IMG/VR virus record: IMGVR_UViG_3300037991_001833
Span: 1 to 35,689 of that record
Reading direction: 5' to 3' (one strand)
Source: a virus
Taxonomy: Duplodnaviria > Caudoviricetes
Length of the DNA: 35,689 nucleotides
Positions 5,945-20,835 of the stretch are shown one piece after another. Numbering within the stretch: the stretch's first letter is position 1; every line of letters starts with the position of its first letter. The position numbers were made by a program, and so were the translations under genes. A model generated the notes under the pieces. It made no database searches and was not told the origin of the DNA. It was given only the letters and a program-made list of their open reading frames with translations.

Positions 5945-6126
5945 GCATTTATTTCAGGTCATCAATGGGAATAGATTTTCCAAAAGCTCCATATATAGGT
6001 CAGGTTCATTACGACTTTGACCTAAAAAGGACTTTCAGATATGAAGAAAAAGATTTTGGAGATTGTATTTTAAAATCAACAATAGATTGGTTTCATTGGG
6101 TCGATATAACTGAGAAAGATTTATGA
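5941..6126 (+). CDS. Hypothetical protein with FPxxPYxGQVxY motif
   Basis: ATGA coupling at 5941; similar to ORF 8028..8192. Confidence 0.7.
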   Translation: MSIYFRSSMGIDFPKAPYIGQVHYDFDLKRTFRYEEKDFGDCILKSTIDWFHWVDITEKDL

Positions 6127-6680
6127 ACATTCAGGATAATTGTGCTGACATTCCTGAGAAACCAACGGAAAATAATTTCGGCCTTTTATTATCTAAAAAA
6201 TATAGAGCTAAAATATCTGAAAGATATAGTAATTTTTTCTATAAAAAGTTTTTTAAAAGAATACCAAATAAATATGTTTTAAAATTTGATGCTTATTCAG
6301 ATTTAGAAATCATTCAATATGCTTTAAATTGCCTTGAATCTGGAGAAATTAAATCTAGATCAGATTTACCGATAGAAAATATTGAAAAATTAAAGGAAAA
6401 TATAGATTCTCAACTTAGTGAATATCGTAAACTAACTTTAAATAGTTGGGTTTCAACTGCTGACATGGCAGAGTGTCTTGGAGTTACAGAAAAGCAACTT
6501 TTAGAATGGAGAAAACAAGGCTATCGACCTTTGGATAATAAGAAAAACAAGAAATTAGCTTTAAGAGAAGGAATTACTTGGAGGTTAAAAAAAGGGCATA
6601 CCAGAACTTACGAATGGAACTTTACTCATACAGCGTATTGTGATGATGTCTTTTGGAGTGATAAGGCTTACTTCGATTAA
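6123..6680 (+). CDS. Protein with C-terminal excisionase/MerR-like HTH
   Basis: WVSTADMAECLGVTEKQLLEWRK...LREGITWR. Confidence 0.65.
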   Translation: MNIQDNCADIPEKPTENNFGLLLSKKYRAKISERYSNFFYKKFFKRIPNKYVLKFDAYSDLEIIQYALNCLESGEIKSRSDLPIENIEKLKENIDSQLSEYRKLTLNSWVSTADMAECLGVTEKQLLEWRKQGYRPLDNKKNKKLALREGITWRLKKGHTRTYEWNFTHTAYCDDVFWSDKAYFD

Positions 6681-13995: not shown

Positions 13996-14442
13996 CTACT
14001 TTGTTTCTACTTTAATAGATAGTTCAGGTGCTTGAATATTGACTGTCTCTACTGACTCTCCGATAACCTTACCTAATGAATCTAATATTTGGGCTGCTGT
14101 CTGTAATTGACCTTTTGAAACTGCCTTGTTGAATAATCTAACTCTCATTGCCTGAAGTCTTGGAAGCATATTTTCTCTATCTTTTTCCCAATCTTCGTTA
14201 TTCCATTGTTTCACTCGACTCCAATCGCTCCAAGCGGAAGTTTCTGCGATGCCTTCAATCTTTGCGTGTTCTAAAACTAGCTGTCTTGTAGTTTTACCCT
14301 CAAGTTGACGAGAGTATAATCTTTGACTTCTAGCTTGGATATGCTCTTTTGTATTGCAAGCAAACTTAGAACGTCTTTTTCTTTTTTCTTGTTGTTGTTT
14401 ATGATCTTCTGGAACGAAACCAGACATAAAAGATTCAGCCAC
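13996..14442 (-). CDS. terS: Putative terminase small subunit (GTG start)
   Basis: N-terminal HTH-like segment, helical middle, C-terminal AAQILDSLGKVIGE..VNI; adjacent to terL. Confidence 0.65.
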   Translation of the reverse strand: MAESFMSGFVPEDHKQQQEKRKRRSKFACNTKEHIQARSQRLYSRQLEGKTTRQLVLEHAKIEGIAETSAWSDWSRVKQWNNEDWEKDRENMLPRLQAMRVRLFNKAVSKGQLQTAAQILDSLGKVIGESVETVNIQAPELSIKVETK

Positions 14443-14543
14443 GGACTCAATCAGATAAGGTATTATTTGAATGATAACCTAGAAAATGTAAATTAGGCTA
14501 TAAAAAGGGGGTAATAGTTGAAAAATTTGTTATTTTTTAGTGT

Positions 14544-15800
14544 ATGCCTGTAAAAACCGCACCAGAAATCAGTTTAAGATATGCCCAGGGCCAAGTTTTT
14601 AACTGTGAAAAACGATTTCGTGTCCTCGTAGCTGGTCGAAGATTCGGAAAATCATATTTATCTTGTATTGAATTAATTCGTGGAGCGATAAATCGACCAG
14701 GGGAGACATATTTTTACTGTGCACCGACATATCGCATGGCAAAAGACATTGCATGGAAAGAATTAAAGAGATTAGTCCCAAAAATCTGGATAAAAAGCAA
14801 AAATGAGACAGATTTAAGGATCGAATTGATTAATGGATCGACAATCGAGTTAAAAGGAACAGAAAATGCGATGGCTTTGAGGGGAAGAAGTCTTTCGGGG
14901 GTGGTATTAGATGAAGCAGCGTTTATGGATCAAGATGTATGGGCGGAAGTTATCAGACCAGCTTTAGCAGATAAGCAGGGGTGGGCGTTGTTTATTTCTA
15001 CACCTGATGGAACTGCGAGTTGGTTTTATGATATGTGGTGTTTTTGCGGAGAAACTGATCGAGATGATTGGCAAAGGTGGAGTTTTACTACGATTGAAGG
15101 GGGTAATGTCGCTCCAGAAGAAGTCGAAGCAGCTAGAGGTCAATTAGATTCGAGAACATTTAGACAGGAATTTGAAGCTAGTTTTGAGAATCTTACTGGT
15201 TTAGTAGCGATTAGTTTTGATGATGAGAATATTTCTAAGGAAGTGCAGGATTTACATATGATGCCTTTGTTAATCGGATTAGATTTTAACGTAGATCCGA
15301 TGGCAGGAATTTGTGCTGTAAAGCATAATGATTGTCTTTATGTGTTTGATGAGATCATGTTGACGGGCGGAGCAACAACTTGGGATTTTGCAGAAGAGGT
15401 TACAAGAAGATATGGGGTAGATCGAAGAGTAATTGCGTGTCCTGACCCTACGGGTAGTGCAAGAAAAACCAGTGGAGTGGGTGTTACTGACCATACGATC
15501 TTAAGAAGGAATGGTTTTACTGTTATGAGTCCTAAATCACCCTGGAAGATCAGAGATAAGATAACTTCTGTTAATACTGCTTTGCTTGATGCAAATGGAG
15601 ATCGAAGAACTTTTATTCACCCAAGATGTAAAGAGTTAATAAAATCTCTCAGAACTCTCACTTACGCTCCAAATACAGGTATGCCAAACAAAAACCTGGG
15701 GGTTGATCATGCTTTTGACGCTTTCGGTTATCTTTGTTTGCAACAATTTAACCTTGCCAAACCAGAGACATTAGGCCAAACTTCGTTTAGAATATATTAA
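14544..15800 (+). CDS. terL: Terminase large subunit
   Basis: Walker A AGRRFGKS, Walker B VVLDEAA, FISTP, RNase H GLDFN and DHAFDA. Confidence 0.95.
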   Translation: MPVKTAPEISLRYAQGQVFNCEKRFRVLVAGRRFGKSYLSCIELIRGAINRPGETYFYCAPTYRMAKDIAWKELKRLVPKIWIKSKNETDLRIELINGSTIELKGTENAMALRGRSLSGVVLDEAAFMDQDVWAEVIRPALADKQGWALFISTPDGTASWFYDMWCFCGETDRDDWQRWSFTTIEGGNVAPEEVEAARGQLDSRTFRQEFEASFENLTGLVAISFDDENISKEVQDLHMMPLLIGLDFNVDPMAGICAVKHNDCLYVFDEIMLTGGATTWDFAEEVTRRYGVDRRVIACPDPTGSARKTSGVGVTDHTILRRNGFTVMSPKSPWKIRDKITSVNTALLDANGDRRTFIHPRCKELIKSLRTLTYAPNTGMPNKNLGVDHAFDAFGYLCLQQFNLAKPETLGQTSFRIY

Positions 15801-15818
15801 GAGTTTCCTTGTTTCCTC

Positions 15819-15896
15819 ATGTATTATTCCACTACAAAGAAGAAGAAGAAAAAGAAGAAGGGAGGTAAAAAACGTGGCGAATGTTCCTGTAAATAA
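15819..15896 (+). CDS. Poly-Lys peptide, 25 aa
   Basis: Hand-translated MYYSTTKKKKKKKKGGKKRGECSCK. Confidence 0.5.
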   Translation: MYYSTTKKKKKKKKGGKKRGECSCK

Positions 15897-16038
15897 AACT
15901 CTTTACGCTAGAGTAAAAGCCGAAGCCAAGCGTAAGTTCAAAGTATATCCTAGTGCTTATGCTAATGCGTGGCTTGTACGAGAGTATAAGAAACGTGGCG
16001 GTACTTATCGAGTGGAGAGAAAAAGTGGCAAGAAGTAG
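15874..16038 (+). CDS. Basic protein, DUF5872-like N-half
   Basis: GTG start after GGAGG; LYARVKAEAKRKFKVYPSAYANAWLVREYKKRGGTY. Confidence 0.8.
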   Translation: MANVPVNKTLYARVKAEAKRKFKVYPSAYANAWLVREYKKRGGTYRVERKSGKK

Positions 16039-16279
16039 TGGCGGTCTAACCCGTTGGTTTAAAGAAAAGTGGGTAGATGTTAAAACAGGTAAGCCTTGTG
16101 GTCGTTCCAAAGGTGAAAAACGAGGCTATCCTGCCTGTAGACCAAGTAAACGTGTATCAAGTAAGACACCTAAGACTGCTGGAGAGATGTCAGCAGCCGA
16201 AAAAGCTAGATTTAAACGTGAAAAAACAGGCAGTAAGAAGATAAGTTATCAACATAGACGAAAAAAGAAGAAAAAATAA
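16025..16279 (+). CDS. Basic protein, DUF5872-like C-half
   Basis: GTG 16025 after GGAG; GLTRWFKEKWVDVKTGKPCGR...YPACRP. Confidence 0.8.
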   Translation: MARSSGGLTRWFKEKWVDVKTGKPCGRSKGEKRGYPACRPSKRVSSKTPKTAGEMSAAEKARFKREKTGSKKISYQHRRKKKKK

Positions 16280-16337
16280 CTGTGAAAGTTGCAGTTTCAA
16301 GGTAATATATTGTTATAAGTAAAATTTTCTTAGAATC

Positions 16338-16754
16338 ATGGCATTTTTTCGTGGTGAAGAAGGCTCTGTATCATTTGATAACGGAACTGGATCAGTTGGA
16401 GCAGTAGCTTCTACAACAGCTTGGACATTAGATACAACAAAAGATACTCTTGAGTGTACTGCTCATGGAGATACATCAAGAAAGTATGTAGGATCTTTAA
16501 TTTCTGGTTCTGGTACTGTTGATCTTCTTTACACTGCAACATCTGGTGATGATACTGCTGAAATAATTACAGATGTATTAACAACAGAAGATGCTGGTGA
16601 TGCTTCATTTAATTTGTTTTTAGATACATCAGGTACTAAAAAACTAAGTTTTAATGGAATTATTACAGGAACTTCATTTAGTTCTACAGTTGGTGATATT
16701 TCTACAGTATCAGTTAGCTTTGTAACAACTGGTGCTATTACTTCTGCTATCTAA
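16338..16754 (+). CDS. Major tail tube protein
   Basis: G..GSV.F, WTLD...DTLECT, YV..LISGSGTVD, FNGIITG..FSSTVGD...VSVSF..TG pattern; no other tube candidate in window. Confidence 0.8.
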   Translation: MAFFRGEEGSVSFDNGTGSVGAVASTTAWTLDTTKDTLECTAHGDTSRKYVGSLISGSGTVDLLYTATSGDDTAEIITDVLTTEDAGDASFNLFLDTSGTKKLSFNGIITGTSFSSTVGDISTVSVSFVTTGAITSAI

Positions 16755-16876
16755 TGCCTAAATCATCTTATTCGGGCAAACAACGCAAACTTGCTGCTGT
16801 TGCTCCACCACGGGATAAGATTACGGCTGCTGATCTTAAAAAACTACGTTCTAAGAAAAAAAAGAAAAAGAAGTGA
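16754..16876 (+). CDS. Small basic protein, 40 aa
   Basis: Hand-translated MPKSSYSGKQRKLAAVAPPRDKITAADLKKLRSKKKKKKK; TAATG coupling. Confidence 0.75.
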   Translation: MPKSSYSGKQRKLAAVAPPRDKITAADLKKLRSKKKKKKK

Positions 16877-17022
16877 AACTTACCACTCGCCAAAAAAACT
16901 TATTAGAGAAACACTCTGAACACCATAGTGATAAGCATATGGAGTTTATGAAAAGGCGAATGAGAGCAGGAGATACTTTTACCCAAGCTCATAAAAAGGC
17001 ACAGGCAAAGGTGGGCAAATGA
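16873..17022 (+). CDS. Small His/Lys-rich protein, 49 aa
   Basis: Hand-translated MKLTTRQKNLLEKHSEHHSDKHMEFMKRRMRAGDTFTQAHKKAQAKVGK; GTGA and ATGA couplings. Confidence 0.75.
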   Translation: MKLTTRQKNLLEKHSEHHSDKHMEFMKRRMRAGDTFTQAHKKAQAKVGK

Positions 17023-17294
17023 GGAAAAAACGTAAACAGGTAAATTTAAGTGTAGGCAGAGGGGAAAAGTCTAAAACAGGAGGACTTACTGCAAAAGGTC
17101 GTGCGAAATACAATCGTGCCACTGGTAGTAATTTAAAAGCACCAGTTACAGGAAAAGTAAAACCTGGAAGTAAAGCAGCTAAAAGACGAGCATCTTTTTG
17201 TGCAAGGATGTCTGGTATGCCAGGGCCAATGAAAGATAGTAAAGGCAGACCTACAAGAAAAGCGTTAGCTTTAAAGAAATGGAGGTGTCGCTAA
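17019..17294 (+). CDS. Basic conserved phage protein (DUF6321-like)
   Basis: GGLTAKGRAKYN..TGSNLKAPV...SFCARM...W.C. Confidence 0.8.
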   Translation: MRKKRKQVNLSVGRGEKSKTGGLTAKGRAKYNRATGSNLKAPVTGKVKPGSKAAKRRASFCARMSGMPGPMKDSKGRPTRKALALKKWRCR

Positions 17295-18737
17295 ATGACT
17301 TATGCTGTTCCTGGTCCAATTAGAACCAATATTGTTTCATCTACTTCTGTAGGTGGTATTGATAGTCCTTTTACTAGAACTAGAGCAGTTTTAGATATGA
17401 TGAAAGGATGGGAGATAATGAAAGCAGTTAGCGAAGGCACTGATTATTTAAGAACTAATAGTGAGGCATTTTTACCATTAGAGCCAAGAGAAGATTACGA
17501 AGCGTATCTTGCAAGAGTAAATAGAGCAGTATTTAGTCCTTTTACACAGAGATTAATAAGAGCAGCTACAGGTTTAGTTTTAAGAAAACCAATAACACTT
17601 ACTGGAGATCCTTATTGGACAGAAATGTTCAAAATGGATGTTGATGGTTGTAAGTCCGATTTAGATGAATATGCAAGAAGAGTATTGATGTGTTCTCTTA
17701 CTTATGGTCAAAGTCATATTCTTGTAGATTATCCAGCACCATCAGGAGCAGTAAGTCTAGCTGAAGAACGTCAGCAAAATCGTAGACCTTACTGGATCGA
17801 AGTAGACCCAACAAATTTATATGGCTGGAGGCTTGATAGAGAATCAAATTATGGAAACTTGATACAGGTGAGACTGGCTGAGAAAGCTGTATTGCCTGAT
17901 GGTCAGTTTGGTGAAAAGGTTTACGACCAAATAAGAGTAATCGAACCAGGGAGATATAGAGTTTTTCGTAAAAAAGAACAAATCGAAGAAATGTATGATG
18001 TTTCTGATAATAGTGTTACTGGTAATTTTGAAGTAGGTTCAGCAGATAAAGACTATCGACAAGTTGAATCTGGTAGTTTTTCTCTTGGTGAAATACCTTT
18101 AGTAACAATTTATTCGGGTAAAACAGATAATTTAGTAAGCAAACCACCTTTACTTGATATTGCATATCTAAATCTTGCACATTTCCAAAGACAGGCAGAT
18201 TTAATACATAGTTTGCACGTTGCATCTCAACCAATGCTTGTAATGGAAGGATATGACGATCAGACAAAAGATTTAGCTATCTCTGTAAATTATGCAATGG
18301 CAACTCAGCCAGGAAATAAAGTTTATTATGTAGAGCCAGCTTCTAGTGCTTTTGATGCTCAATCTGCTGAGATCAAAGAATTACAAATGCAGATGGCTAC
18401 TCTTGGTATTAGTACTTTAAGTCAGCAGAAGTTTGTAGCTGAATCTGCTGATGCAAGAAGATTAGATCGTGTAGATACTAATTCTATGCTTGCTATGGTT
18501 TCTATGGAATTAGAGCAAAAACTTCAAAAAGCATTTAATTTATCTGCTGAATATGTAGGTATTGAACCACCAGAAGTAAAGATTAGTAGAGATTTTGATA
18601 TTGAAAGATTGATTGGACAAGATATTACAGCATTAACATCATTATTCGATCAACAAGTTATTGATAGAGATGAATTTAGGGATATTTTGGTACAGGGAGA
18701 AGTGTTACCAACAGCGAATGAGGCCAAATCTGAATAG
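17295..18737 (+). CDS. Portal protein (DUF4055-type)
   Basis: FLP.EPRE..E.Y.AR..RA, ILVDYP, KPPLLDIA.LNLAHFQ..AD; size and position. Confidence 0.9.
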   Translation: MTYAVPGPIRTNIVSSTSVGGIDSPFTRTRAVLDMMKGWEIMKAVSEGTDYLRTNSEAFLPLEPREDYEAYLARVNRAVFSPFTQRLIRAATGLVLRKPITLTGDPYWTEMFKMDVDGCKSDLDEYARRVLMCSLTYGQSHILVDYPAPSGAVSLAEERQQNRRPYWIEVDPTNLYGWRLDRESNYGNLIQVRLAEKAVLPDGQFGEKVYDQIRVIEPGRYRVFRKKEQIEEMYDVSDNSVTGNFEVGSADKDYRQVESGSFSLGEIPLVTIYSGKTDNLVSKPPLLDIAYLNLAHFQRQADLIHSLHVASQPMLVMEGYDDQTKDLAISVNYAMATQPGNKVYYVEPASSAFDAQSAEIKELQMQMATLGISTLSQQKFVAESADARRLDRVDTNSMLAMVSMELEQKLQKAFNLSAEYVGIEPPEVKISRDFDIERLIGQDITALTSLFDQQVIDRDEFRDILVQGEVLPTANEAKSE

Positions 18738-18771
18738 TTTGATACAATGATAAACAAGTACATATATTTTC

Positions 18772-18942
18772 ATGGCTGGATCTATTGATAAAGTTCTGCA
18801 ATCTGACGGAACTTATAAATGGGAAGTAGTAGAGCCTAAAACTGAAGCACAAAAAGTCGCTGAAGCTTGTCCTGCTCCCGAACCAAAAGAAACTAAGAAA
18901 AAGGTTTCAAAAAAGAAAACTACTAACCCACTATCTGAATAA
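18772..18942 (+). CDS. Small protein with Lys-rich tail, 56 aa
   Basis: Hand-translated MAGSIDKVLQSDGTYKWEVVEPKTEAQ...KKKTTNPLSE. Confidence 0.7.
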   Translation: MAGSIDKVLQSDGTYKWEVVEPKTEAQKVAEACPAPEPKETKKKVSKKKTTNPLSE

Positions 18943-18945
18943 TTA

Positions 18946-19677
18946 ATGGCAATCGAAGAAAAAGTCATTCAGCCTGATTCCGTGACTCCTGCTGAACAGC
19001 CCGTGGCTGAAACTGCTTCACAACCAACTCAACCACAAGCACCTGATCTTACTGCTGTTAAGACACAGTATGAAGAACAAATTTCAGCTTTAAAAAAACA
19101 AATTGCTGAAGGTGAGGAAAAATTTAAAGGTGCAAAAAATAAACTTGATGAAGTTTACAAGAAAAAAGAAGAACAGAGAAAACAAGAATTAGAAGATCAA
19201 GGACAATGGAAAACTCTTTGGGAAGAGGCCAATAAAACGGCACAAGAAAAAGATCAACAGATTTCAACTTTGTCACAACAATTAGAAGATATGAAAACTT
19301 CTAAAGAAGTAGAATCTACAAGAACAAAAGCATTAGCTGCTATTAGTAATCTTGGTGCTATAAATGCAGAACAAACTTTGGCATTATTGCAAAATAATTT
19401 ACAAAAAAATGCTGAAGGTAAAGTTGTTGTTCTAAATGGTGGAGTTGAGCAAGATTTAAACACCTATCTCAGTAGTCTCAAAAACCCTGGTAGTGGTTGG
19501 GAACATCATTTCAAACCTAGTTCTGCTGCTGGAATGGGAGCAAAACCAAGTCCTGTCGGAAACACTGGCGGAGGTCAAGTAAACCCTTGGAAAACGGGCA
19601 ACCTGACTCAACAAATGCTAATATCAGAACAAGACCCACAGCTTGCAGCAGTGCTCAAGCAAGAGGCTCAAAAATAG
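18946..19677 (+). CDS. Capsid scaffolding protein
   Basis: Charged coiled coil, GxGA linker, NPW...NLTQQ C-terminal motif; immediately before capsid gene. Confidence 0.85.
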   Translation: MAIEEKVIQPDSVTPAEQPVAETASQPTQPQAPDLTAVKTQYEEQISALKKQIAEGEEKFKGAKNKLDEVYKKKEEQRKQELEDQGQWKTLWEEANKTAQEKDQQISTLSQQLEDMKTSKEVESTRTKALAAISNLGAINAEQTLALLQNNLQKNAEGKVVVLNGGVEQDLNTYLSSLKNPGSGWEHHFKPSSAAGMGAKPSPVGNTGGGQVNPWKTGNLTQQMLISEQDPQLAAVLKQEAQK

Positions 19678-19717
19678 TTAGTTTCTGTGAGACTAATCCC
19701 CTTGTCCGTGACTAGGG
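19678..19717 (+). promoter_or_regulatory. Tandem triloop hairpins in capsid 5'UTR
   Basis: TTAGTTTC-TGT-GAGACTAA and CCCTTGTC-CGT-GACTAGGG. Confidence 0.65.
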
Positions 19718-19746
19718 TATCGCAAAACTTAAAAAGGTAAATCTGA

Positions 19747-20835
19747 ATGGCTGCTCCGTTTCAGAATTACTCTGGCGGTGTCCTATTAGCGGATATCGTT
19801 AAGAGAAATAATCTCAGCACATATGTTTCCGAAGCTATCAAGGAACGTAGTGCATTTATTAAATCTGGTGCTGTTGTAAGAAATTCACTTCTTGACGCAT
19901 CAGAAGGTGGAACAAGAATCCAAGTTCCAGAATTTAACCCAATCGCTCCAACTGAGGAAATCTTAGATGGTACAGCAACATGGGGTACAAGTAATTCTGG
20001 TTATTTGACACCACAGAAGATTGGTACAGGAACACAGATCGCAACTATCTGTCACAGAGGTTTTGCGTATGCTGTTGATGATGTAGCTGTATTGGCTGCT
20101 GGTGAAGATCCAATGGGTCACATCAGAAACCAAATTGCAGATGCTATCAACAAGCTAAACTCTGCAAGACTATTCAGTCTATTAGATGGTTTATTTGCTT
20201 CTGGTACTGGTCCTTTAGGTGCAAACTCACTTGACGTAGCTAAAGCTGGTACAAGTGCTGTTGAAGCAAACTTTTTAACAGCTTCTACAGTTGCAAGAGG
20301 TAGATCACTTCTTGGAGAGAGAGGCGAAGAGCTAGATACTCTAGTTGTTCATCCATCTGTTGCTTACTACTTATATCAAGTAGGTTTACTTACATTCTCA
20401 ACATCTGCTCTATCTACTGGTGGTGCAGTAACTTGGGGTGGCGGTGGAGTTGGTGTAACTGACAGAAGTATCGGTCAATTTGCTGGTATGAATGTTGTTA
20501 TTGACTCTCAAGTTAATACAGTTGCTCCTGGTTCTTCTGGTCATCAGACTGAGTTCCGTTGCTTCTTAATTAAGTCAGGAACAATTCTTGAAGGTGAGCA
20601 ATCTCCTCTAAGCATTGAATCAGATAGAAACATCTTATCTAAGCAAGATGTTATGTCTGTTGACTACCACAGTGCTTATCACGTTATGGGAACTAAGTGG
20701 ACATCTGCTACTGACAACCCAACTAACGCACAGTTAGGTAACTCAAACAACTGGGCAATTACATATGATGCAGACCTAATTCCTATGGTTGAAATCATTG
20801 TTAACTCACCACTTGATACATCTAATATTTCTTAA
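19747..20835 (+). CDS. Major capsid protein (HK97 fold)
   Basis: LADIV, SAFIKSG, GG..I.VP.F, AAGEDPM.HI..QIA, VHPSV, VVIDS; followed by terminator. Confidence 0.92.
   Translation: MAAPFQNYSGGVLLADIVKRNNLSTYVSEAIKERSAFIKSGAVVRNSLLDASEGGTRIQVPEFNPIAPTEEILDGTATWGTSNSGYLTPQKIGTGTQIATICHRGFAYAVDDVAVLAAGEDPMGHIRNQIADAINKLNSARLFSLLDGLFASGTGPLGANSLDVAKAGTSAVEANFLTASTVARGRSLLGERGEELDTLVVHPSVAYYLYQVGLLTFSTSALSTGGAVTWGGGGVGVTDRSIGQFAGMNVVIDSQVNTVAPGSSGHQTEFRCFLIKSGTILEGEQSPLSIESDRNILSKQDVMSVDYHSAYHVMGTKWTSATDNPTNAQLGNSNNWAITYDADLIPMVEIIVNSPLDTSNIS

What the first reader, a model, noticed from the sequence alone, without database searches (positions are those of the whole stretch)
14432..19717. Candidate RNA-hairpin regulon linking terminase, scaffold and capsid translation
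Seen: five sense-strand hairpins share a C-(C/U)GU-G triloop cap but have different stems. (1) GAUUGAGUC-CGU-GGCUGAAUC (minus, 14452-14432) contains the terS GUG start codon. (2) UUCAGC..GAUUC-CGU-GACUC..GCUGAA at 18968-18996 and (3) CAGCC-CGU-GGCUG at 18997-19009 lie in roughly codons 8-22 of the scaffold gene. (4) UUAGUUUC-UGU-GAGACUAA at 19678-19696 and (5) CCCUUGUC-CGU-GACUAGGG at 19699-19717 lie in the capsid 5'UTR. Different stems with a constant cap, all near translation starts of head or packaging genes, point to an RNA element. Known: P22 scaffolding protein represses its own synthesis post-transcriptionally. Inference: one RNA-binding protein (free scaffold, capsid protein or a small basic protein) sets scaffold:capsid stoichiometry and gates TerS synthesis. 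I know of no description of this.
Basis: partly seen in the sequence, partly recalled or inferred. Interest (0 to 1): 0.8.

Follow-up and report, generated by a model that had tools for sequence, protein, structure and literature searches.

The report
Scaffold-read RNA hairpins control capsid genes
Small conserved RNA hairpins mark the scaffold and capsid messages of a large group of related marine and freshwater phages, and their loop letters change in step with a short stretch at the front of the scaffold protein, so unassembled scaffold likely binds them, which would switch capsid synthesis on and its own synthesis off.

Summary
The five hairpins are real, and a sixth lies at 19643-19658. 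In relatives the stems show compensatory changes and G-U wobbles under a fixed C-NGU-G cap; valine at the three coding sites is GTG in 187 of 187 cases against 67 of 651 elsewhere. Paired hairpins in the capsid leader recur in KBS-S-2A-like and MED4-184-like phages (28-34% capsid identity). There the loop switches (UGC, UGU, UAC, CGU, UUGU, UUGC) at all sites together and follows about 28 residues of the scaffold's N-terminal coiled coil, not the capsid or the rest of the scaffold, across recombinants. Directly downstream, a helix hides the capsid start codon. Likely mechanism: free scaffold binds the hairpins, opening the capsid start and blocking its own. Binding and direction are untested. 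The hairpin at the terS-like start is lineage-limited, and that gene's identity is unproven. No Rfam match; P22 scaffold autoregulation and GP20 leader motifs are the nearest known. This scan noted other scaffold/capsid operators on other DNA, binder unknown; none on this family.

The parts
14432..14452 (-). Capped hairpin holding the GUG start of the terS-like gene (cap 14444-14440); lineage-limited copy
   Evidence: (7 of 7 low-GC genomes, 0 of 4 high-GC)
13996..14442 (-). 148-aa gene divergent from terL; predicted helix-turn-helix plus long helices, terS-like by architecture and position only
   Evidence: no family hit
18946..19677 (+). Scaffold-type gene (243 aa) directly upstream of the capsid gene; homologous to the gene at the same position in MED4-184
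   Evidence: hhalign 89%, E 2e-6; the gene at this position is annotated scaffold in S-H1 and GP20 in S-2L
18968..18996 (+). Capped hairpin in scaffold codons 8-17 (cap 18980-18984); the window's copy has a mismatch most relatives lack
   Evidence: GTG 63 of 63
18997..19009 (+). Capped hairpin in scaffold codons 18-22 (cap 19001-19005); Pro-Val-Ala / Ser-Val-Thr compensatory pairs
19072..19158 (+). Scaffold residues 43-71, start of the predicted coiled coil; likely RNA-reading segment (Lys50 aligns with the residue that tracks the last loop base)
19643..19658 (+).
   Evidence: (GTG 61 of 61)
19677..19697 (+). Capsid-leader hairpin 1 (cap 19685-19689)
19699..19717 (+). Capsid-leader hairpin 2 (cap 19706-19710)
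19721..19779 (+). Predicted helix from the conserved CGYAAA motif (19721-19726) over the ribosome site (about 19734-19739) and AUG into the first capsid codons
   Evidence: not recovered by the clade-A consensus fold
19747..20835 (+). Major capsid protein gene (phrog_247, SPP1 gp13-like)

Best explanation
The hairpins are conserved sense-strand RNA structures, and unassembled scaffold protein likely binds their loops through the start of its N-terminal coiled coil, which would open the helix that is predicted to hide the capsid start codon and would block the scaffold's own start. Shown here: the hairpins, their covariation and strand asymmetry, the concerted loop switching, its tracking of one scaffold segment, and compensatory changes at the base of the capsid start helix in one clade. 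Inferred: direct binding; a dimer reading the hairpin pair; activation at the capsid leader (hairpins end about 30 nt before the AUG, against the 5' foot of the helix); repression at the scaffold start (hairpin 5 nt before the AUG in the KBS-S-2A clade, codons 8-22 in the window's clade). Once scaffold is taken into procapsids the signal would fall, balancing the two proteins. Some low-GC phages, this one included, have likely wired the terS-like start into the same circuit. Odds: RNA element 0.97; scaffold as reader 0.8; this direction of control 0.55-0.6.
For: RNA: non-Watson-Crick stem pairs are G-U 27 vs A-C 2 (clade A) and 19 vs 8 (clade K); the pair under the cap in two coding hairpins is C:G, U:A or U:G in 126 of 126, never C:A, at the cost of paired amino-acid changes. 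One reader: 297 of 300 within-genome site pairs share a loop in clade K, 0.48 when permuted. Scaffold: loop type needs 5 changes on the scaffold tree and 10 on the capsid tree (65 rows); 4 on scaffold columns 33-62, which exclude the hairpin codons, and 8-10 on later columns; capsids 98.8% identical carry different loops. One residue is acidic with loops ending in C (53 of 53) and Arg with U (12 of 12); a second is acidic with middle G (54 of 54) and Lys with A (11 of 11). Held-out MED4-184 clade, with no scaffold 5' hairpins: Arg/Lys with U 51 of 51, Glu with C 4 of 4; L463 and L464 have capsids 99.7% and the later scaffold 96% identical but the segment 37%, and different loops. Third set of 49 new scaffolds: 48 of 49 and 49 of 49; L565 and L568 have 77-nt leaders differing only at the two third-loop bases, scaffold 1-55 42% and last 150 residues 95% identical. 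Codons at both residues vary synonymously, so the constraint is on protein. Hidden start: folding stronger than synonymous shuffles, z below -1 in 24 of 25 (K), 25 of 25 (M), 19 of 25 (A high-GC); leader and synonymous coding bases covary in 45 of 47 and 47 of 47 MED4-184-type loci. [quoted passage not shown]
Against: No binding or expression data. Independent events are few: 5 of 5 and 3 of 3 pairs on capsid trees go the predicted way, neither significant alone, and the same few segment alleles recur. The segment moves as a block; neighbouring columns associate as well, and the residue five places upstream covaries by charge, as a coiled-coil salt bridge would, so the residue-base code is a hypothesis. 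L581 breaks the rule. In the window's clade the first rule fits (0 of 120 acidic) but the second does not in the hhalign register (Lys/Arg 117 of 120 with middle G; the residue before is acidic in 114), and loops there do not vary informatively. The start helix is weak in the window's own low-GC group (z below -1 in 5 of 25), the portal start of clade K is also structured (18 of 25), the clade-A consensus fold did not recover it, its covariation rests on 3 independent pairs, 2 agreeing, and scaffold and capsid starts are equally paired in clade K (0.35 vs 0.36).
Confidence: 0.62

Rival explanations
1. Scaffold binds the hairpins but represses at every site, capsid leader included, as a plain brake on head-gene output.
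Against: Capsid-leader hairpins end about 30 nt upstream of the AUG and the start is already predicted to be hidden; excess scaffold shutting off capsid would worsen the imbalance (inference).
Confidence: 0.12
2. The hairpins tether scaffold to the capsid message so that it catches the nascent capsid protein (co-translational chaperoning), with little change in translation rate.
For: The leader pair is the universal part, kept where scaffold 5' copies are absent; the N-terminal segment is far from the C-terminal helices; SPP1 gp11 chaperones gp13.
Against: Does not explain copies at the scaffold start, the terS-like start or a tail-gene leader, nor the helix over the AUG.
Confidence: 0.1
3. 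A host or other phage protein reads the loops, and the scaffold segment covaries because it contacts that same factor or sets dimer specificity.
For: The best-associated residues fall at positions that also form coiled-coil salt bridges; no known RNA-binding fold was found in the scaffold model.
Against: Leader loops 600 nt away change by point substitution after the segment is swapped inside an otherwise constant gene; this needs a third gene switching in step each time. Genes beyond scaffold, capsid and portal were not tested on trees.
Confidence: 0.1
4. Free capsid protein (or TerS) is the reader.
For: Coat-protein operators are known in RNA phages (recalled); the terS-like protein has a predicted helix-turn-helix and its start lies in a hairpin.
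Against: Capsids 98.8-99.7% identical go with different loops, and no capsid column separates loop types cleanly; the terS-like hairpin is lost in lineages that keep the others. TerS was not put on a tree against loop type.
Confidence: 0.04
5. DNA-level sites (palindromic operators, pac-like sites or cruciforms).
For: One copy overlaps the start of a terS-like gene, where pac sites often lie (recalled).
Against: Arms vary while the asymmetric spacer is fixed, conserved copies always read sense on either strand, G-U is tolerated and A-C is not.
Confidence: 0.02

Closest known systems
Translational autoregulation of phage P22 scaffolding protein (gene 8); Casjens & Adams 1985, Wyckoff & Casjens 1985 (titles seen in a reference list; text not held); N-terminus implicated per bioRxiv 10.1101/2022.12.13.520362 (passage)
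   Same: A scaffold acting on head-gene mRNA through its N-terminal part.
   Different: No sequence link to P22 gp8 found. Here the operator is defined, repeated, centred on the capsid leader, predicted to activate capsid, and comes in switchable loop/segment pairs.
GP20-a (RF02991), GP20-b (RF03003) and six further candidate RNAs upstream of GP20 genes (PMC10690425 section 2.5)
   Same: Structured RNA at the 5' end of scaffold-type genes; S-2L's scaffold-position gene is annotated GP20 and carries two capped hairpins.
   Different: No Rfam match; those motifs are 72-107 nt, within 25 nt upstream of the gene, with no binder proposed in the section read. The alignments of the six candidates could not be searched.
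Roquin constitutive decay element (PMC6294493, passages)
   Same: Stem capped by a YRY/YRN triloop, typically C-UGU-G; tandem copies.
   Different: Mammalian 3'-UTR decay signal read by shape through the ROQ domain; here loop bases are lineage-specific and track a coiled coil. Convergent shape only.
Phage Mu Com activation of mom mRNA (recalled; also named in earlier finding e1-6316434)
   Same: Protein binding just upstream of a helix that hides the start codon switches translation on.
   Different: Com is a dedicated zinc-binding regulator (recalled); here the likely activator is a structural assembly protein.

Membership tests
P22-type scaffold autoregulation | Free scaffold represses translation of its own gene | not testable with these tools
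   Needs reporters; hairpin positions fit
P22-type scaffold autoregulation | Regulatory determinant in the scaffold N-terminus | tested here: met
   By covariation only; P22 statement
P22-type scaffold autoregulation | Homology to P22 gp8 | tested here: inconclusive
   No scaffold among PDB sequence or fold matches
Rfam GP20-a / GP20-b | Match to the covariance model at gathering score | tested here: not met
   window, E up to 5 and 10; six related loci
Rfam GP20-a / GP20-b | Lies at the 5' end of a GP20/scaffold-type gene | tested here: inconclusive
   S-2L gene annotated GP20, Pfam Phage_scaffold only E 0.022; window scaffold has no family hit; core copies precede the capsid gene
Roquin CDE | 6-8 bp stem with YRN triloop | tested here: met
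   Leader hairpin 1 fits; many copies have shorter stems, AGU/GGU loops or tetraloops
Roquin CDE | Eukaryotic 3'-UTR, read by a ROQ domain | tested here: not met
   Phage 5' leaders and coding regions
Iron-responsive element (features recalled) | CAGUGN loop with unpaired sixth base | tested here: not met
   The base after the closing G pairs and covaries; first loop base is free
Terminase small subunit (gene 13996-14442) | Match to a TerS profile | tested here: inconclusive
   No hit in PHROGs, Pfam, NCBIfam; TerS rows in the viral fold search only at E 0.25-0.6
Terminase small subunit (gene 13996-14442) | N-terminal helix-turn-helix plus helical oligomer region, next to terL | tested here: met
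   HTH-type matches, Z up to 6.2, a common level; near terL in either orientation

The most novel reading that the evidence does not exclude
The first turns of a phage scaffold's coiled coil are a sequence-specific RNA-binding module with a readable code (acidic residue for C or G, Arg/Lys for U or A), exchanged between phages by recombination as orthogonal protein-operator pairs; free scaffold thereby licenses capsid translation, silences itself and in some lineages gates the terminase and tail genes, making it the master sensor of head assembly and the probable missing binder of the many orphan RNA motifs before scaffold and capsid genes.
Probability: 0.4. Interest if true: 0.92.

Novelty: new variant of a known kind. 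Interest (0 to 1): 0.82.

Why it matters
How tailed phages match scaffold to capsid supply has rested on one example, P22. Here natural recombinants point to both the operator and a 28-residue reading segment, in a family with cultured members (MED4-184, KBS-S-2A, S-H1, S-2L), so the question becomes a simple swap experiment. It offers a binder hypothesis for orphan GP20-type leaders, and, if the code holds, a tiny coiled-coil RNA-binding module with several orthogonal loop pairs.

Tried and rejected
Genome-wide enrichment in the window alone: not significant. Rfam: nothing above chance. Other conserved target genes: 116 clade-A and 96 clade-K ORF groups scanned; beyond scaffold and capsid only the long major-tail gene of high-GC clade A stood out (0.76 of 17); several antisense shadow frames in clade K scored 0.5 or more under the looser cap and were set aside; start calling failed for the terS-like group there and was redone. 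Readthrough into the capsid: in-frame stops lie between the genes and spacing varies. Terminator or promoter role: no U-tract terminator, no promoter-like site at the leader. Gene conversion among copies: stems differ. Nine distant phages with gp13-like capsids and two Bacillota loci showed no such capped pair by fold and inspection. Fold searches of the scaffold and terS-like models gave no clear PDB match; the protein atlas did not answer. RNA runs: contigs of four metatranscriptomes cover the leader and capsid gene but cannot show strand, start or level. One search's picker chose overlapping decoy hairpins in 7 of 49 rows; the count was redone on the fixed hairpin-2 frame; 113 of 162 loci were dropped first (77 scaffolds already in the training set, 30 incomplete, 5 duplicates, 1 partial). 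Literature searches listed no description of this element; the supplement of PMC5737381 and three supplementary files of PMC10690425 could not be read and may hold the motif.
Full report
Context. The window is a whole 35.7-kb virus record, 36% GC, with siphovirus head and tail genes. Its capsid is 76% identical to a single-cell marine virus and 28-35% to cultured cyanophages S-2L, KBS-S-2A, S-H1 and MED4-184; a cyanobacterial host is inferred, not shown. I call the window's relatives clade A, KBS-S-2A relatives clade K and MED4-184 relatives clade M.

Observation. In the window alone they are unremarkable genome-wide, though four fall within 801 nt. A sixth lies in the last scaffold codons.

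Conservation in clade A. Of 113 distinct capsid leaders 112 hold at least one capped hairpin and 84 hold two or three; of 119 scaffold 5' regions 116 hold at least one. The cap is C-NGU-G. In 32 hand-picked leaders 97% of cells pair and 9 of 15 pairs change on both sides. In 65 scaffolds filtered to 92% identity the valine under each cap is GTG in 63 of 63, 63 of 63 and 61 of 61, against 67 of 651 other valines; the pair below the cap is C:G, U:A or U:G in 126 of 126, so Pro-Val-Ala, Ser-Val-Thr and Ser-Val-Ala occur and Pro-Val-Thr does not. G-U outnumbers A-C 27 to 2. This is single-stranded, sense-strand structure, so RNA (inference). Across the window and ten near-whole relatives only scaffold, leader and terS-like start recur; high-GC members add a copy before a long major-tail gene that the window lacks.

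The terminase arm. The site's core sequence equals that of leader hairpins in 66 of 113 leaders and survives different N-termini, but only 111 of 159 low-GC divergent loci keep a stem, one lineage has lost it while keeping GTG, and 0 of 24 high-GC loci have it. The protein is terS-like by predicted architecture and position only.

Distant clades. Clade K leaders all carry the hairpins (56 of 56 with at least one) and 54 of 59 scaffold starts do, one copy ending 5 nt before the AUG. KBS-S-2A itself and all of clade M have the leader pair only; S-2L has two scaffold copies and no leader. In clade K the loop is UGC, UGU, UAC or CGU, and 297 of 300 within-genome site pairs agree, against 0.48 permuted.

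Who reads it. On the same 65 rows loop type needs 5 changes on the scaffold tree, 10 on the capsid tree, and 7 on a 46-row portal tree. Within the scaffold it needs 4 on columns 33-62, which exclude the hairpin codons, and 8-10 on all later parts, although those lie between the segment and the leader. One residue is Glu/Asp with loops ending in C (53 of 53) and Arg with U (12 of 12); another is Glu/Asp with middle G (54 of 54) and Lys with A (11 of 11); these fit base hydrogen bonding (own knowledge). Held out, clade M (55 rows, no scaffold 5' hairpins): Arg with U-ending triloops 34 of 34, Lys with a UUGU tetraloop 17 of 17, Glu with UUGC 4 of 4; 4 changes on the segment, 6-10 elsewhere, 8 on the capsid; L463 and L464 differ in little but segment and loops. 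A third set of 49 new scaffolds gave 48 of 49 and 49 of 49. L565 and L568 have leaders that differ only at the two third-loop bases and scaffolds that differ mainly in the first 55 residues; L568's hairpin before the scaffold AUG still has the old loop. Codons vary synonymously. Limits: independent pairs are 5 of 5 and 3 of 3; the segment moves as a block and a neighbouring residue covaries by charge as in a coiled-coil salt bridge; L581 is mismatched; in clade A the aligned residue is never acidic in 120 scaffolds, as predicted, but the second rule fails in that register.

What binding would do. Just 3' of hairpin 2, a CGYAAA-type motif is in 98 of 113 clade-A and 49 of 56 clade-K leaders. 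It is predicted to pair with early capsid codons, closing a helix over the ribosome site and AUG; folding beats synonymous shuffles in 24 of 25 (K), 25 of 25 (M), 19 of 25 (A high-GC) but only 5 of 25 (A low-GC), while portal and terL starts of clade A do not and the clade-K portal start does (18 of 25). In clade M two leader bases covary with synonymous coding bases in 45 of 47 and 47 of 47 loci that hold the motif (8 of 55 lack it), on few independent events. The clade-A consensus fold did not find this helix. A start that is off by default, with scaffold sites at its foot, favours activation; a site on the scaffold's own start favours repression. Both are inferred.

Comparison with the known. 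[quoted passage not shown] GP20-a/b and six more candidates upstream of GP20 genes (PMC10690425, passages and section 2.5); six of its supplementary files lacked six test motifs, three could not be searched. PMC5737381: passages only, no mention of capsid, GP20 or scaffold in the main text, supplement unreadable. SPP1 gp11 chaperones gp13 (PMC6316719, passages). Roquin elements share the triloop shape (PMC6294493, passages). IRE, Mu Com and RNA-phage operators are recalled. No Rfam match; searches (listings only) showed no description. Earlier notes of this scan report other shared scaffold/capsid operators with unknown binder on other DNA and nothing on this family; they are leads, not support.

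Verdict. A real, uncatalogued RNA operator family. It works like P22 scaffold autoregulation but is not shown to be a member, and it adds control of the capsid gene and a traceable reading segment. New variant of a known kind; interest 0.82.

Noticed in passing
L060, L167, L170-L172, L174 and other high-GC clade-A loci, about 40 nt before the long major-tail gene: The same capped hairpin precedes the 250-aa major tail gene; low-GC versions (L005, L048) have a U-AGU-A variant. The window has a short major tail gene without it.
   Followed up: partly
window 16338-16754: The short major tail gene sits between terL and portal, far from the tail module, flanked by two small basic proteins (DUF5872 at 15953-16279, DUF6321 at 17019-17294).
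   Followed up: no
window 13996-15800: The terS-like gene is divergent from terL here but co-directional in many high-GC relatives.
   Followed up: partly
window 6123-6680: 185-aa gene with a weak terminase-small-subunit/HTH profile hit (phrog_57, E 3e-4), a second TerS candidate.
   Followed up: no
window 15786-15841 (-): Sub-threshold match to the Cyano-1 RNA (30 bits, E 0.23) just past terL.
   Followed up: no
L581 and L568: Recombinants with mismatched loops: L581 has a UGC-type scaffold with a UGU leader; L568 keeps a UGC loop before the scaffold AUG while all else is UGU.
   Followed up: partly
L015 capsid leader: Three hairpins in the leader and none at the scaffold 5' end.
   Followed up: no
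L024 and L065, scaffold-capsid junction: The leader is missing and the scaffold end runs into the capsid start; possibly assembly artefacts.
   Followed up: no
clade K portal starts: Also more structured than synonymous shuffles (z below -1 in 18 of 25), without the capped hairpins.
   Followed up: no
clade K and M scaffolds, N-terminal segment: An Asn sits at a core heptad position as in dimeric leucine zippers (pattern recalled), fitting a dimer that reads a hairpin pair.
   Followed up: no
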